A stretch of DNA of 41,322 nucleotides from an uncultured Pseudomonadota bacterium (lineage in GTDB: Bacteria > Babelota > Babeliae > Babelales > CAIQNR01): positions 1-41,322 of the forward strand of contig CAZJPB010000001.1 in assembly GCA_964547785.1 (NCBI GenBank), read 5' to 3'. Positions 10,692 to 14,680 of the stretch are shown here, one piece after another; the first letter of the stretch is position 1, and the number at the start of each line of letters is the position of its first letter. Position numbers and translations under genes: made by a program. Under the pieces are notes generated by a model. That model was not told the origin of the DNA, searched no databases, and saw only the letters and a list, made by a program, of their open reading frames with translations.

Positions 10692-10759
10692 AAAAAATAA
10701 GAGCCACTTTTTTACAAGCAGCTCTTATTTTTCATCATTACGCTCTTTTTTTTATTTTT
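10691..10759. repeat. conserved 3'-flank module, copy R1 (contains a terminator hairpin)
   Basis: aaaaaaataagagccacttttttacaagcagctcttatttttcatcattacgctctttttttta recurs with few changes at 11709-11774 and 12899-12963, each time directly downstream of a paralogous minus-strand gene. Confidence 0.9.
10697..10732. terminator. bidirectional rho-independent terminator (tgt on plus strand, paralog P1 on minus strand)
   Basis: Stem ataagagc (10697-10704) pairs with gctcttat (10721-10728). Extra inner pairs are possible. A-run upstream and T-run downstream give a T-tract on both strands. Confidence 0.6.
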
Positions 10760-11671
10760 TTATAAATAATAAGGATTTCCAGTTAATTCAACAGATATTT
10801 TATCATACCTTGTTGGATCTATTAACTTGTCTGAACGAGAATAGCGCCTACAGTAGGCCAAACTCTCATCACTGTTTTCATCTTGCAAAGAATAATATTT
10901 TGGATTAGCTAATAACAATTCTTTTCTAGTATCAAAAATAGGAGATATTTCAGGATATTTTTCTTCTAAACGTTTCACATTCAAGCTGAAAGTTGGCATC
11001 AACAAAGCTAATATGCTAGTTACTCTTGCAGTTGCTGCACAAAATTCTATACGTAATTCAGAAAATTCTGCTGCTGTAAGATTCGGTTTTGTTGCAGAAT
11101 TTTTTAATTCATTAAATCTATCTTTTAATTCTTCAGCAAATTTTTTTGTTTCTGGATTTTTATTTTTATTGCATACTATTTTTACAAGATCATTCAATAC
11201 ATTAATTTCAGCTGCCATTAAGCTTTGCAAGAGATTAATTTCTTTTTCATCAATTTTTGTACTTAATACTGAAAAAAAAGATGAATCACTTTTTACAGTA
11301 TTTTTTTTAAAAAAATACTTACCCAAACAAAATGATCCATATGCTACTCCGGCTACCGTTACAAATGGCATAAAATTTCTTGCAACAAATCCTTTAGTTC
11401 GGTCCCAAAATGATGGCTTTGCCGCTTGCTTTACAAATTCCCTCATAGTATTTGGAGTTTTTGGCGCTTGCTCAGAGAAAGATCTTTTTCCTGCAGCTTG
11501 AGCTAAAGAAGCAACTGATGATGCTTTGGTTGACCTTAAAGCAGTAGTCATAAGACCTACTCTGCTTGCAGCTGCGCCATTTTTAAAAGTAGTTCGCATT
11601 GCAGCCATTGGTTGAACTTGATTAACAACACTAAGTGCGCATAATAGCGCTATTGAATATATAGATTTCAT
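10760..11671 (-). CDS. secreted/membrane-anchored protein, conserved-leader family member P1
   Basis: 303 aa. The N-terminal ~115 aa are homologous to P2 (MKSIYSIALLCALSVVNQVQPMAAMR...ASRVGLM.TALRST...ASLAQAAG.RSFS...KGFVARNFMPFVT). The C-terminal ~190 aa are unrelated to P2 and P3. Confidence 0.7.
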   Translation of the reverse strand: MKSIYSIALLCALSVVNQVQPMAAMRTTFKNGAAASRVGLMTTALRSTKASSVASLAQAAGKRSFSEQAPKTPNTMREFVKQAAKPSFWDRTKGFVARNFMPFVTVAGVAYGSFCLGKYFFKKNTVKSDSSFFSVLSTKIDEKEINLLQSLMAAEINVLNDLVKIVCNKNKNPETKKFAEELKDRFNELKNSATKPNLTAAEFSELRIEFCAATARVTSILALLMPTFSLNVKRLEEKYPEISPIFDTRKELLLANPKYYSLQDENSDESLAYCRRYSRSDKLIDPTRYDKISVELTGNPYYL

Positions 11672-11708
11672 TAGTATTTCCTTATAGTTTTTATAAAATT
11701 ATTGTGAT

Positions 11709-11774
11709 AAAAAAAAAGAGCCACTTTAAATAAACAAGCAACTCTTATTTTTCATCATTACGCTCTTTTTTTTA
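11709..11774. repeat. conserved 3'-flank module, copy R2 (degenerate hairpin)
   Basis: aaaaaaaaagagccactttaaataaacaagcaactcttatttttcatcattacgctctttttttt. The second half is identical to R1. The hairpin stem is weakened. Confidence 0.85.
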
Positions 11775-12782
11775 TTATCTTCCTAAAAGCCAGTTCCAAG
11801 TACGAGTCAAATAGCCTTCTTCAACTTTTGTTAAAAAATCTATACCTTCTCGTTCGCTTAAAGCTTTAATTGCTGCTTTTGTTGCTTCTTTTGTTTGACG
11901 CGCAGTTTTCCAATTTTTATCGCAATATTCTAATGCTTTTCTCATTTGTTTAATAAGTTTTTTAGAATCTTTACAATCAAGCCCTTGAGCAAAAACTATG
12001 TCTACTTCTCCATTAGGAAAAAATAAATATCTGTGATAATAAATATTTTGTTGTTTTTGCATATTTTCATCAATCATACATAAAGTTCTTTGAACTGCTT
12101 TTTCCAATTCACTAAATGAATCATAATTCGAATGAGTATAAAATCCATATTCATATAAAGTAGAACCACCTTCATGATGCAATTCTGCTAAAGCCAAATA
12201 TTCAATGTTTCCTGTTTTGTATGGATGCCCACCCTGAAGATAAACAAGTTCTAATGCATAGATTTCACCACCAACACCAATAGTTGTTCTTTCTGTTCTT
12301 GATAGATTAACATCATATTTACCATCAAGTTTTCTTTGCTTAACGTTATCCCAAACATTTTGCTCAGCTTGAACTGGCGCATCTTGAGCTAGTGTTCCTT
12401 TAAGTTTAGAAGCTTCATACATTGCGTGCACTTGCTTTACTTCTTTACGATATGCCAATGCTGCAACCGAAAACAATCCAGTTGCTGTTACGAATGGCAT
12501 AAAATTTCTTGCAACAAATCCTTTGGTTCGAGTTGCAGCTTGCTTTGCAGCTTGTTGCATACTTTCTACCGTTCCTGCAACTTTTGCAGAGAAAGATCTT
12601 TGCCCTGCAGCTTGAGCTAATGAAGCAATTGGTGCTCTCGTTGATCTTAAAGCAGTAGCCATAAGACCTACTCTGCTTGCAGCCATTGCATTTCTTGCAC
12701 CAGCTCGCATTGCAGCCATTGGTTGAACTTGATTAACAACACTAAGTGCGCATAACAGCGCTATTGAATATATAGATTTCAT
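11775..12782 (-). CDS. secreted/membrane-anchored protein, conserved-leader family member P2
   Basis: 335 aa. The first ~76 nt of the CDS match P1 with 1 mismatch. The C-terminal domain is unrelated to P1. The extreme C-terminus (EEGYLTRTWNWLLGR) resembles that of P3 (KKGYFARFADWALQK). Confidence 0.7.
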   Translation of the reverse strand: MKSIYSIALLCALSVVNQVQPMAAMRAGARNAMAASRVGLMATALRSTRAPIASLAQAAGQRSFSAKVAGTVESMQQAAKQAATRTKGFVARNFMPFVTATGLFSVAALAYRKEVKQVHAMYEASKLKGTLAQDAPVQAEQNVWDNVKQRKLDGKYDVNLSRTERTTIGVGGEIYALELVYLQGGHPYKTGNIEYLALAELHHEGGSTLYEYGFYTHSNYDSFSELEKAVQRTLCMIDENMQKQQNIYYHRYLFFPNGEVDIVFAQGLDCKDSKKLIKQMRKALEYCDKNWKTARQTKEATKAAIKALSEREGIDFLTKVEEGYLTRTWNWLLGR

Positions 12783-12898
12783 TGTATTTCCTTTATATTT
12801 TAATGAAAAAAGCTATTTCTAATTGAAATAATATCATAAAGAATGATTATTGCAAGCGGACTATGCAAGCCTTTTAAGCCTGTCAGCTTAATTTTTAA

Positions 12899-12963
12899 TT
12901 AAAAAATAAGAGCCACTTTTTTACAAGCAGCTCTTATTTTTTAAAAATTATGCTCTTTTTTTA
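12899..12963. repeat. conserved 3'-flank module, copy R3
   Basis: aaaaaaaataagagccacttttttacaagcagctcttattttttaaaaattatgctcttttttt. The hairpin is identical to R1. Confidence 0.9.
12906..12942. terminator. rho-independent terminator hairpin downstream of P3
   Basis: Stem ataagagc (12906-12913) pairs with gctcttat (12930-12937), flanked by an A-run and a T-run. Confidence 0.55.
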
Positions 12964-13629
12964 TTATTTTTGTAGCGCCCAATCAGCAAAGCGTGCAAAA
13001 TAACCTTTTTTGTCTTTTTCTAAAAAAAACGAATATTTTCTACGATCTCTTTTTTCTAAATCTTTTATGGCTTTGATTAAACCTGGAATTTCATCTTTAG
13101 AAGCATGAGCAAATAAATCAGTCAAAGTATCTTGAAATAATAAATCCTTTGAGTCTCTTTCCGTTGCATTATAAATTACATAAATCTTCTTATCTGTTAT
13201 TAAAGCACGTTTTGTATAATCTCTATTTTCTCGAAGAGACGTTTCACCTTCTAAACAAATATCTTCTACTATTTTTGGATCACAAGTTAAGCCTACACCT
13301 AAACGAGCAGAAAAAGCTGATGGAAATTTTTCATCAAAACACCAAACCGTTTGTTCTTCCAATCTACCAATATTTTGTTCTTCTAGTTTTTTTGCTAATG
13401 TTCTTTCTGCTAGTGCTTTTGCATGAACAATCTTTTGATTTGCAACATTATAGTAATGTTGAGGAGAATGAGGATATGCCAATCGTGCTACAGTAAGCAA
13501 TCCAGTTGCCGTTACGAATGGCATAAAATTTCTTGCCACAAATCCTTTAGCTCCATTCGCAGCCATTGGTTGAGCTTGATTAACAACACTAAGTGCGCAC
13601 AAAAGCGCTATTGCATATATAGATTTCAT
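12964..13629 (-). CDS. secreted/membrane-anchored protein, conserved-leader family member P3 (short leader)
   Basis: 221 aa. Same signal peptide (MKSIYAIALLCALSVVNQAQPMAA) and TM segment (KGFVARNFMPFVTATGL) as P1/P2. It lacks the ~45-aa Arg/Ala/Ser-rich segment between them. Confidence 0.7.
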   Translation of the reverse strand: MKSIYAIALLCALSVVNQAQPMAANGAKGFVARNFMPFVTATGLLTVARLAYPHSPQHYYNVANQKIVHAKALAERTLAKKLEEQNIGRLEEQTVWCFDEKFPSAFSARLGVGLTCDPKIVEDICLEGETSLRENRDYTKRALITDKKIYVIYNATERDSKDLLFQDTLTDLFAHASKDEIPGLIKAIKDLEKRDRRKYSFFLEKDKKGYFARFADWALQK

Positions 13630-13680
13630 TGTATTTCCTTATCGTTTAATGAAAAAACTAGCAAAATAACTTGTTTTATT

Positions 13681-13760
13681 TTCTAAAAAAATGAATATTT
13701 TCTGTCATCTCTTTTTTCTAAATCTTTTACGGCTTTGATTAAACCTGGAATTTTTTCTTC
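13681..13760 (-). pseudogene. remnant of a fourth P-family gene (3'-terminal fragment)
   Basis: About 90% identical by eye to 13018-13092 inside P3. On the minus strand it translates as EKIPGLIKAVKDLEKRDDRKYSFF then a stop, compared with P3 EIPGLIKAIKDLEKRDRRKYSFF. Confidence 0.6.
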
Positions 13761-13765
13761 ATAAA

Positions 13766-14680
13766 TTATAATTTTGGACTTGGCCAATTACCAGCAATGT
13801 GCGCGTGCAAATGATATATAACCTGAGAAGAATTGCTGCCATTATTAATGTGCAAAGTATAAGGTCTTTTATCGGCTATTTTGTTAGCAAGCAAAATCAT
13901 ATCAAGCAGCACTTCTGCATATTTTTTAAGATTACAAAAATCAGTTTTTAAATTAGCAACGTGTTCTCGCGGAGAAATTAAAAAATCAGCAGTAACTGTA
14001 GGCCTATGTTTTAAAAATGCAAACGCATGTTCACTTGTTGCAATAATGTTTCCTGGTGCTGTTTTATCTAAAATCTTACAAAAAACACAATCTTTTTTAT
14101 TAATACATTTTTCGCTAGATGCTTTTGTGTAATGCAAAGTTACTTTAAAAGGTTTAATCATGTCTGTATTTTGATTCTTTGGCACATTGCTATCAATAAA
14201 TAAAGTAAAATCATATCCTTCCATTACAGCCAAAATAAGATTAAAAAAGCCTAAAAAATTTTCGAAATTTTTAGATCTCCACAAATAATCAAAATCATAC
14301 AAACTTGATGGTAGCCATATTGTTTCAAGTTCCATGATTCCATCGCTCTTATAATACACATTGGCAACATGATAATTTGAATGTAAAGATGCGCAAATTT
14401 TTTCACTTTTTCCATCTGCAGCTAAAAATGATCTATGGCCACCAATGCTTCTTTCTGTAGCACCATCAGCCATAAGACTCGCTTCTGAGCTAGACTTGCA
14501 TCCAAATGGAAAATTTTCTATGTCATGTTTTTTTTGTTGCAATACCTTTGTTTGCACACTAACAAGTGTATCAAATGAACAAAGCAAAAGACTAAAGAGT
14601 AATAAAAAAAATATCATATATCCTCGCATTAAAGAACAACCAACATCCTTACAGCATGCTGATCCCATAGGTTTTGTCAA
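13766..14680 (-). CDS. HIT-family nucleotide hydrolase/transferase with ~190-aa N-terminal extension
   Basis: The C-terminal ~110 aa carry the CVFC motif and the histidine triad IYHLHAHI. The N-terminus has a hydrophobic segment (MIFFLLLFSLLLCSF). The ORF-track start is TTG. ATG alternatives exist at 14666-14668, 14627-14629 and 14615-14617. Confidence 0.75.
   Translation of the reverse strand: MTKPMGSACCKDVGCSLMRGYMIFFLLLFSLLLCSFDTLVSVQTKVLQQKKHDIENFPFGCKSSSEASLMADGATERSIGGHRSFLAADGKSEKICASLHSNYHVANVYYKSDGIMELETIWLPSSLYDFDYLWRSKNFENFLGFFNLILAVMEGYDFTLFIDSNVPKNQNTDMIKPFKVTLHYTKASSEKCINKKDCVFCKILDKTAPGNIIATSEHAFAFLKHRPTVTADFLISPREHVANLKTDFCNLKKYAEVLLDMILLANKIADKRPYTLHINNGSNSSQVIYHLHAHIAGNWPSPKL

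What the first reader, a model, noticed from the sequence alone, without database searches (positions are those of the whole stretch)
12588..12719. Conserved leader contains an acid-free Arg/Ala/Ser-rich segment ending in RSFS, resembling a mitochondrial presequence
In P2, residues ~22-65 read MAAMRAGARNAMAASRVGLMATALRSTRAPIASLAQAAGQRSFS. In P1 (nt 11474-11608) the segment reads MAAMRTTFKNGAAASRVGLMTTALRSTKASSVASLAQAAGKRSFS.

Both stretches have 6-7 Arg/Lys, no Asp or Glu, and abundant Ala/Ser/Thr/Leu. Both end in R-S-F-S. That ending fits the R-3 processing motif (R-x-[FYL] then [SA]) known for the mitochondrial processing peptidase.

The segment follows a bacterial-type signal peptide and precedes a hydrophobic anchor. 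P3 lacks exactly this segment, so it behaves as a separable module.

My inference is a bipartite leader: bacterial export followed by targeting to a host organelle. That would be a plausible effector strategy if this organism lives inside a eukaryote. The alternative is a disordered basic linker.
Basis: inference. Interest (0 to 1): 0.6.

Follow-up and report, generated by a model that had tools for sequence, protein, structure and literature searches.

The report
Basic spacer in orphan leader cassette
Two of three tandem orphan genes in a small host-dependent (probably Dependentiae) bacterium carry a real acid-free Arg/Ala/Ser stretch between a signal peptide and a hydrophobic helix, but it looks like a mitochondrial address only in composition and is more likely a basic membrane-flanking spacer.

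Summary
P2 residues 22-65 (12588-12719, minus strand) and P1 residues 22-66 (11474-11608) read as described: no Asp/Glu, 6-7 Arg/Lys, ending in RSFS. They lie between a signal-peptide-like N-terminus and a moderately hydrophobic helix. P3 lacks a larger block, P2 residues 25-86, not exactly this segment.

The genome is about 0.93 Mb. It has three ATP/ADP translocases, and its nearest relatives are Dependentiae MAGs, so a host-associated lifestyle is plausible.

The mitochondrial-presequence reading rests on composition alone:
- Helical amphipathicity is no higher than in shuffled sequences.
- The R-x-[FYL]-[SA] motif is expected by chance about 0.05 times per 45 residues.
- About 8% of the genome's ORFs hold an equally acid-free basic window.
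- P1 and P2 diverge almost neutrally in the module (pN/pS about 0.8).
- Arg-rich sequence directly after a signal peptide is disfavoured for Sec export.
- No type III or IV secretion marker was found.

The family is confined to this species' population. An intact fourth paralog, from a metagenome contig that overlaps this locus, has only the signal peptide.

I favour a fast-evolving basic low-complexity spacer within a recombining leader cassette (confidence 0.45). Host-mitochondrial targeting is not excluded (about 0.1). TargetP, MitoFates and SignalP could not be run.

The parts
10760..11671 (-). P1 gene (303 aa): leader cassette plus a C-terminal domain unrelated to that of P2 and P3
   Evidence: ORF list. 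BLASTP of P1 against P2 aligns only residues 1-109. The AAGGAAATAC RBS is conserved.
11600..11671 (-). P1 signal-peptide-like segment (residues 1-24)
   Evidence: Identical in protein to P2. Between P1 and P2, pN is 0 and pS is 0.06.
11474..11599 (-). P1 acid-free basic module (residues 25-66, ending in RSFS)
11309..11395 (-). P1 conserved KGFVARNFMPFVT motif plus hydrophobic helix (residues 93-121)
   Evidence: Invariant columns in alignment A1.
11775..12782 (-). P2 gene (335 aa)
   Evidence: No Pfam or NCBIfam family match.
12711..12782 (-). P2 signal-peptide-like segment (residues 1-24)
12588..12710 (-). P2 acid-free Arg/Ala/Ser module (residues 25-65, ending in RSFS).
   Evidence: GC is 0.47 against 0.32 for the rest of the gene, while GC3 is equally low (0.18 against 0.15).
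12525..12587 (-). P2 linker (residues 66-86). It contains Glu and is also absent from P3.
   Evidence: Alignment A1. pN/pS is 0.374/0.404.
12450..12524 (-). P2 KGFVARN motif plus moderately hydrophobic helix (residues 87-111)
   Evidence: Kyte-Doolittle 18-residue mean is 1.56. pN/pS is 0.154/0.495.
12964..13629 (-). P3 gene (221 aa). The signal peptide is joined almost directly to the KGFVARN motif and helix, with no module.
13680..13760 (-). Relic 3' end of a fourth paralog. An intact form, P0004 (210 aa, signal peptide plus domain only), is encoded on a 1041-nt metagenome contig that overlaps this locus.
   Evidence: Profile hit with E 3.7e-8 and one TAG stop. The 1041-nt contig of run X3 overlaps 13301-13736.

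Best explanation
The segment is a real, fast-evolving, low-complexity basic spacer. It sits inside a shared N-terminal leader cassette of a tandem ORFan family confined to this species' population, in a host-dependent, probably Dependentiae, bacterium.

The cassette has four parts in order:
- a signal-peptide-like segment;
- an optional Arg/Ala/Ser spacer;
- a conserved KGFVARNFMPFVT motif;
- a moderately hydrophobic helix.

The cassette is kept similar among paralogs by recombination at the 5' end and is fused to unrelated C-terminal domains.

Proposed role (inferred, not shown): the spacer acts as a positively charged membrane-flanking segment. Held on the cytoplasmic side under the positive-inside rule, it would fix the orientation of the following helix. 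The variable C-terminal domain would then face outward, the same side as in the paralog that has only a signal peptide. The spacer's sequence is barely constrained, and only its bulk composition might matter.

Shown: the anatomy, the restricted distribution, the divergence pattern and the lack of amphipathic periodicity.
Inferred: the topology and the role.
For: 1. Anatomy and paralog comparison. The module lies between two hydrophobic segments. The net charge of the inter-segment region is +10 in P2. That is the joint highest, with the unrelated C2:979, among 35 ORFs that have a signal peptide plus one later hydrophobic segment.

2. Sec transport. Arg is rate-limiting for Sec transport and is depleted in Sec substrates (PMC9110029). 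An Arg-rich stretch straight after a signal peptide is therefore more likely retained than exported.

3. Location of the C-domain. P0004 has a signal peptide joined directly to the P3-type C-domain. That places the domain outside the cytoplasm. In P2 and P3 this is consistent only with a loop-in, C-out topology or with full export.

4. Cleavage site. No canonical (-3,-1) signal-peptidase site lies in the c-region QPMAA. The only candidate is ALS|VV, inside the h-region.

5. Divergence between P1 and P2 (pN/pS):
- signal peptide: 0/0.06;
- module: 0.165/0.202, near neutral;
- linker: 0.374/0.404;
- motif plus helix: 0.154/0.495, purifying.
Beyond the helix the two proteins cannot be aligned. 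This gradient fits 5' gene conversion of a leader cassette.

6. Composition. Module GC is high only at codon positions 1 and 2. The bias is therefore at the amino-acid level and does not indicate foreign DNA.

7. Amphipathicity is not above shuffles.
Against: - The first hydrophobic segment has an h-region of only 13 residues. That is typical of cleaved signal peptides in this genome (median 12) and short for a membrane span. The N-out, loop-in, C-out topology is therefore uncertain.
- The second helix is only marginally hydrophobic (Kyte-Doolittle 1.56) and may not be a membrane anchor.
- The module is dispensable in P3 and P0004. With pN/pS about 0.8 it could have no role at all.
- No topology predictor (SignalP, DeepTMHMM) could be run, and AlphaFold models were uninformative (pLDDT 38 and 43).
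Confidence: 0.45

Rival explanations
1. Bipartite leader. The signal peptide drives Sec export. After cleavage, the exposed Arg/Ala/Ser stretch acts as a mitochondrial presequence in the host and is cut by MPP at RSF|S. The following helix would then serve as a stop-transfer anchor in a mitochondrial membrane.
For: - Composition fits: acid-free, net +6 to +7, about 40 residues, rich in Ala/Ser/Thr/Leu.
- P2 uses 6 Arg and 0 Lys, in a genome where R/(R+K) is 0.33.
- The R-3-type motif RSFS is present.
- The organism has three ATP/ADP translocases and a reduced genome.
- A cultured Dependentiae member makes the host mitochondrion wrap around it, and 44% of its CDS carry signal peptides (PMC6561590).
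- There is a precedent for a signal peptide and an organelle signal in succession, in the Liberibacter Sec-dependent effector Las5315 (PMC4933711).
- A secretin is present.
Against: - There is no helical amphipathicity above shuffles and no 100-degree periodicity.
- The motif is expected by chance 0.046 times per 45 residues.
- 8% of ORFs have comparable acid-free basic windows.
- PMC5525287 states, citing earlier work, that random peptides from bacteria readily act as mitochondrial targeting sequences, so resemblance has low specificity.
- An Arg-rich stretch after a signal peptide hinders Sec export (PMC9110029).
- The hydrophobic helix could arrest in the bacterial inner membrane.
- No VirB4 or FHIPEP marker was found, although the genome is only 88% complete.
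- The module is near-neutral between P1 and P2, and the absence of new acidic residues is not significant (P about 0.3).
- There is no conservation outside this species' population.
Confidence: 0.1
2. Exported basic linker. The signal peptide is cleaved. The module then becomes a flexible or helical cationic N-terminal arm in the periplasm or on the cell surface. It would bind anionic envelope or host-membrane lipids next to the hydrophobic helix.
For: - The signal-peptide layout is typical for this genome.
- The second helix is only marginally hydrophobic, so it might pass through Sec.
- The paralog P0004 indicates that the C-domain is exported.
- A few unrelated ORFs show a signal peptide followed by an acid-free basic stretch: C2:979, C13:8447 and C16:1482.
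Against: - Post-signal-peptide regions in this genome are not generally basic or Arg-rich. Mean Arg count is 0.79 against 0.95 in control windows, and mean net charge is -0.6.
- Arg is disfavoured in Sec-translocated segments (PMC9110029).
- No canonical cleavage site lies in the c-region.
Confidence: 0.25
3. A functionless low-complexity insertion, an Ala/Arg-rich expansion that is tolerated in a rapidly turning-over ORFan family.
For: - pN/pS is about 0.8 in the module and about 0.9 in the linker.
- The module is dispensable in P3 and P0004.
- The family shows a relic copy and possible strain-level rearrangements.
Against: - The composition is extreme for this genome: 32% Ala against 8% genome-wide, and Arg preferred over Lys.
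- The bias is encoded at codon positions 1 and 2 against the AT mutational bias.
- The same position in the unrelated C2:979 and in the remotely leader-related C23:1262 also holds an acid-poor basic stretch.
Confidence: 0.15

Closest known systems
Mitochondrial matrix-targeting presequences cleaved by MPP (R-2/R-3 motifs)
   Same: Length of about 40 residues, no acidic residues, net charge +6 to +7, enrichment in Ala/Ser/Thr/Leu/Arg, and an R-x-F-S ending. A downstream hydrophobic segment recalls the bipartite inner-membrane sorting signals.
   Different: The module is not at the N-terminus of the primary product. Amphipathic periodicity is not above shuffles. It is encoded by a bacterium and preceded by a Sec-type signal peptide. 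There is no evidence of import.
Sec-dependent effector Las5315 of Candidatus Liberibacter asiaticus (signal peptide plus chloroplast targeting signal in succession; PMC4933711)
   Same: An intracellular bacterium with a reduced genome. The concept is a Sec signal peptide followed directly by a host-organelle address.
   Different: Las5315 was shown experimentally to localise to chloroplasts once its signal peptide is removed, and candidates in that study were selected for lacking a transmembrane domain. Here nothing has been shown, and a hydrophobic helix follows the module. There is no sequence similarity.
Signal-peptide-bearing ORFan and putative effector families of Dependentiae (Chromulinavorax destructans; PMC6561590)
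   Same: The same kind of organism and gene class. [quoted passage not shown]
   Different: This family has its own leader cassette with an optional basic module, and it has no homologs in 260 other genomes of the phylum.
Positively charged cytoplasmic loops of bacterial membrane proteins (positive-inside rule)
   Same: A net positive, acid-poor stretch bracketed by two hydrophobic segments.
   Different: The stretch is unusually long (about 77 residues between the segments) and Ala-rich. The first hydrophobic segment looks like a cleavable signal peptide and not like a full membrane span.
Chlamydial Inc proteins (bilobed hydrophobic domain)
   Same: Family-specific membrane-associated proteins of an intracellular bacterium. 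In P3 two hydrophobic segments lie close together.
   Different: There is no N-terminal type III signal region before the first hydrophobic segment, and no type III secretion marker was found. In P1 and P2 the two lobes are separated by about 77 residues.

Membership tests
Mitochondrial presequence (MTS) | Positively charged, essentially acid-free stretch of about 15-60 residues rich in Ala/Leu/Ser/Arg | tested here: met
   P2 has 6 Arg and 0 D/E in 44 residues. P1 has 7 K/R and 0 D/E in 45 residues.
Mitochondrial presequence (MTS) | Ability to form an amphipathic helix, seen as a high hydrophobic moment near 100 degrees | tested here: not met
   Maximum muH over 18 residues is 0.45 (P2) and 0.36 (P1). 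The fraction of composition-preserving shuffles reaching the observed value is 0.37-0.88. The angle scan has no peak at 100 degrees.
Mitochondrial presequence (MTS) | Located at the N-terminus of the polypeptide that meets the host import machinery | tested here: inconclusive
   The module starts at residue 22-25, behind a signal-peptide-like segment. Exposure needs signal-peptidase cleavage, but the c-region has no canonical (-3,-1) site.
Mitochondrial presequence (MTS) | MPP cleavage motif (R-2 or R-3) | tested here: inconclusive
   RSF|S fits R-x-[FYL]-[SA]. That pattern occurs 268 times in 265 k residues, which is 0.046 expected per 45 residues.
Mitochondrial presequence (MTS) | Positive score from dedicated predictors, or demonstrated import | not testable with these tools
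   TargetP, MitoFates and MitoProt are not available here, and no experiments are possible.
Sec-type (SPase I) signal peptide | Layout of a basic n-region, a hydrophobic h-region of about 10-15 residues and a polar c-region | tested here: met
   MK / SIYSIALLCALSVV / NQVQPMAA. The h-region is 13 residues, against a median of 12 for 298 crude signal-peptide ORFs of this genome.
Sec-type (SPase I) signal peptide | Small residues at -3 and -1 at the end of the c-region | tested here: inconclusive
   Only ALS|VV, inside the h-region, satisfies the rule. M-A-A has Met at -3. The rule discriminates weakly here: 89% of signal-peptide ORFs pass against 67% of control positions.
Positive-inside cytoplasmic loop of a two-helix membrane anchor | Net positive loop flanked by two membrane-spanning hydrophobic segments | tested here: inconclusive
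   Loop net charge is +10. The first segment is only 13 residues long, and the second has a Kyte-Doolittle mean of 1.56, which is marginal.
Bacterial lipoprotein signal peptide | Lipobox [LVI][ASTVI][GAS]C | tested here: not met
   The sequence reads A-L-L-C, with Leu at -1. P0004 has no Cys in this position.

The most novel reading that the evidence does not exclude
A Dependentiae parasite sends a recombining family of proteins to its host's mitochondria through a bipartite leader, a Sec signal peptide followed by a presequence-like module and a stop-transfer helix. That would give a molecular handle on the mitochondrial remodelling seen in cultured Dependentiae. It would also be the first signal peptide plus MTS address described for a bacterium.
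Probability: 0.1. Interest if true: 0.75.

Novelty: new member of a known kind. Interest (0 to 1): 0.3.

Why it matters
How Dependentiae manipulate their protist hosts is unknown. They appear to lack type III and IV systems yet encode hundreds of proteins with signal peptides. If the module were a mitochondrial address, it would point to a Sec-based route for delivering effectors to organelles. It would also identify candidate effectors behind the mitochondrial wrapping phenotype.

On present evidence the locus is a typical fast-turning-over, population-restricted family of signal-peptide ORFans. It is useful mainly as an example of a leader cassette being recombined onto different C-terminal domains.

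Tried and rejected
- **Homology searches.** Neither the 5.8-billion-protein search nor the full HMMER search of 1.84 billion representatives found anything beyond P1-P3 and P0004. Pfam and NCBIfam gave only sub-threshold noise. The ESM Atlas gave no usable hit.
- **Relatives.** The leader was not found in 40 relatives, including four genomes of the same genus. It was also not found in 260 other genomes of the phylum. The P1 C-domain gave only chance-level hits, E 0.005-0.009 per genome over 261 genomes.
- **Metagenome scans.** An exact DNA pattern and back-translated peptide patterns both found nothing.
- **Structure.** AlphaFold2 on P2 alone gave pLDDT 38.5, and P3 with a 3-row alignment gave 42.9. 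Both are too poor for a fold search.
- **Internal-duplication origin of the module.** The module against the pre-TM motif plus helix gave z = 0.57. The QAAGKRSFS against QAAKPSFW repeat gave p about 0.11. Neither is supported.
- **A genome-wide class of signal peptide plus basic segment.** Post-signal-peptide windows are not enriched in Arg or net charge. Only a handful of ORFs show the pattern, and only C13:8447 is significantly amphipathic.
- **C2:979 as a distant paralog.** No detectable similarity.
- **Selection for the acid-free state, from P1/P2 divergence.** Not significant, P about 0.3.
- **Terminator scan.** None found.
- **RNA evidence.** No RNA holder was listed among the sequencing runs.
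- **Population variants of the module.** These could not be read from the contig tables. X3 and X7 have no cover over 12572-12675. X4 shows a divergent allele with a 1-nt gap at 12687, and I could not follow its consequences.
- **Tools unavailable.** No binding prediction was attempted.

Full report
**What is at the locus**

Three tandem genes lie on the minus strand between tgt and a HIT-domain gene:
- P1, 10760-11671, 303 aa;
- P2, 11775-12782, 335 aa;
- P3, 12964-13629, 221 aa.

Each has the same strong RBS, AAGGAAATAC(A/T)A, before the ATG, so residue 1 is the real start.

The alignment shows a shared leader with these parts:
- A signal-peptide-like N-terminus, MKSIY(S/A)IALLCALSVVNQ(V/A)QPMAA.
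- In P1 and P2 only, a short linker that does contain acidic residues.
- The invariant motif KGFVARNFMPFVT, which runs into a hydrophobic helix.

One detail is wrong. P3 lacks P2 residues 25-86, which is the module plus the linker, not just the acid-free stretch.

**The rest of the proteins**

Beyond the helix, P1 and P2 share no detectable similarity. P2 and P3 share a weakly similar C-terminal domain.

No Pfam or NCBIfam family matches. Two very large protein searches found only the three window proteins plus one 210-aa protein, P0004.

P0004 has a related signal peptide joined directly to a P3-like C-domain, with neither module nor hydrophobic helix.
- Its only contig on record is 1041 nt long.
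- A 1041-nt contig of a wastewater metagenome run overlaps window 13301-13736 with six differences.
- Where the window has only a relic 3' fragment (13680-13760), that population therefore very probably has an intact fourth paralog. This rests on matching contig length and on the overlap. I did not read the contig's sequence.

The family was not found in four genomes of the same genus, in 260 other genomes of the phylum, or in JGI metagenomes. In relatives, the slot after tgt holds other, unrelated signal-peptide ORFans.

**The organism**

- The assembly is 0.93 Mb, 88% complete, with about 35% GC.
- The best tgt relatives include several MAGs labelled Candidatus Dependentiae. Other labels are mixed, automatic ones.
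- The genome has three tandem TLC ATP/ADP translocase genes and one secretin. No VirB4 or FHIPEP marker was found.
- The locus occurs in freshwater and wastewater metagenomes from several studies.

In the cultured Dependentiae member Chromulinavorax destructans, 44% of CDS carry signal peptides and the host mitochondrion is reorganised around the bacterium (PMC6561590).

**Testing the presequence reading**

*Composition.* It fits: zero Asp/Glu, net +6 to +7, 32% Ala in P2 against 8% genome-wide, and Arg preferred over Lys although the genome uses Lys 2:1. The high GC of the module (0.47 against 0.32) sits in codon positions 1 and 2 only, and GC3 is equal. The bias is therefore at the amino-acid level and is not foreign DNA.

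*Amphipathicity.* This defining structural property is not there.
- Maximum hydrophobic moment at 100 degrees is no higher than in composition-preserving shuffles for 11- or 18-residue windows.
- The angle scan has no helical peak.

*Cleavage motif.* R-x-[FYL]-[SA] is expected 0.046 times per 45 residues.

*Base rate.* 66 of 816 crude ORFs contain a 44-residue window that is acid-free, non-TM and holds at least 6 basic residues. PMC5525287 states, citing Baker & Schatz 1987, Lemire 1989 and Lucattini 2004, that random peptides from bacteria readily act as mitochondrial targeting sequences. Resemblance therefore has low specificity.

*Constraint.* P1 against P2 gives pN/pS of 0.165/0.202 in the module, close to neutral. 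About 15 replacements without a new acidic residue is unsurprising (P about 0.3). P1 and P2 are one observation, not two.

*Mechanics.*
- Arg is rate-limiting for Sec transport and is selected against in Sec substrates (PMC9110029).
- The c-region QPMAA lacks a canonical -3/-1 site.
- A hydrophobic helix follows the module, and no dedicated injection system was found.

**What I think it is**

The pattern of synonymous divergence along P1 against P2 rises from the 5' end:

| Region | pS |
|---|---|
| Signal peptide | 0.06 |
| Module | 0.20 |
| Linker | 0.40 |
| Motif plus helix | 0.50 |
| Beyond the helix | not alignable |

This points to a leader cassette that is homogenised or transferred by recombination from the 5' end onto different C-terminal domains. 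Contig joints between the paralogs' leaders in two metagenomes are compatible with this, but they could be assembly collapse.

Within the cassette, the signal peptide and the KGFVARN motif plus helix are constrained. The module is not.

The inter-segment region of P2 has net charge +10. Together with the unrelated ORF C2:979, that is the extreme among 35 ORFs with a signal peptide and one later hydrophobic segment. P0004 indicates that the C-domain is extracytoplasmic.

The simplest model is that the basic stretch stays on the cytoplasmic side and orients the following helix so that the C-domain faces out. The short h-region (13 residues) and the marginal hydrophobicity of the second helix (Kyte-Doolittle 1.56) keep this uncertain. 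An exported cationic arm, or a functionless low-complexity insertion, remain real alternatives.

**Side observations on other ORFs**

- C23:1262 has a leader remotely similar to the family's (hhalign probability 73%), followed by its own acid-free Arg/Ala stretch.
- A few other ORFs show a signal peptide followed by an acid-free basic stretch: C2:979, C13:8447 and the ankyrin-like C16:1482.
- This is not a genome-wide property of post-signal-peptide regions. Only C13:8447 is significantly amphipathic.

**Verdict**

The family is a new member of the known class of Dependentiae signal-peptide ORFans. The mitochondrial-address reading is attractive in context, but it is supported by composition alone and failed the one structural test available. 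I give it about 0.1.

Both AlphaFold models were too poor to use.

Noticed in passing
window 13680-13760 (-); P0004: This is a relic 3' end of a fourth paralog. An intact 210-aa version (signal peptide plus P3-like domain, no module, no helix) very probably lies on a 1041-nt wastewater metagenome contig that overlaps 13301-13736.
   Followed up: partly
G000:C23:1262-2293 (+) = L040:1262-2293: A 343-aa ORFan whose first 38 residues align to the family leader (hhalign probability 73%, GFFAR against GFVAR). It is followed by its own acid-free Arg/Ala-rich stretch of about 40 residues.
   Followed up: partly
G000:C2:979-1857 (-): An unrelated 292-aa ORF with the same architecture: a signal peptide, a 76-residue acid-poor region of net charge +10, and a marginally hydrophobic helix (Kyte-Doolittle 1.55). 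It has no detectable homology to P1 or P2.
   Followed up: partly
G000:C16:1482-2705 (+); C13:8447-11002 (+); C13:5597-6253 (-): All three ORFs begin with a signal peptide. C16:1482 continues with an acid-free basic stretch ending RRTF and then ankyrin-like repeats (by eye). C13:8447 has the only significantly amphipathic basic stretch after a signal peptide (p 0.005). C13:5597 ends in a RING-like Cys pattern (by eye).
   Followed up: no
G000:C40:1357-5591 (-): Three tandem TLC-family ATP/ADP translocase genes, a hallmark of energy parasitism.
   Followed up: no
window 10700-13800, runs X1 and X7: Contigs join P1 sequence to P2 sequence at two points: 11363 to 12493 and 11673 to 12784. This is either strain-level recombination or deletion between paralogs, or assembly collapse on the repeated leader.
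   Followed up: no
G000:C63:1244-2632 (+): Three tandem small paralogs (138-157 aa). They share a signal peptide ending Q(S/Q)(M/V)NA and have a C-terminal hydrophobic segment. This is another locally amplified envelope family.
   Followed up: no
L005, L034 (same-genus genomes, downstream of tgt): The slot after tgt holds different, unrelated signal-peptide ORFans in each relative. It is a variable hotspot for secreted ORFans.
   Followed up: partly
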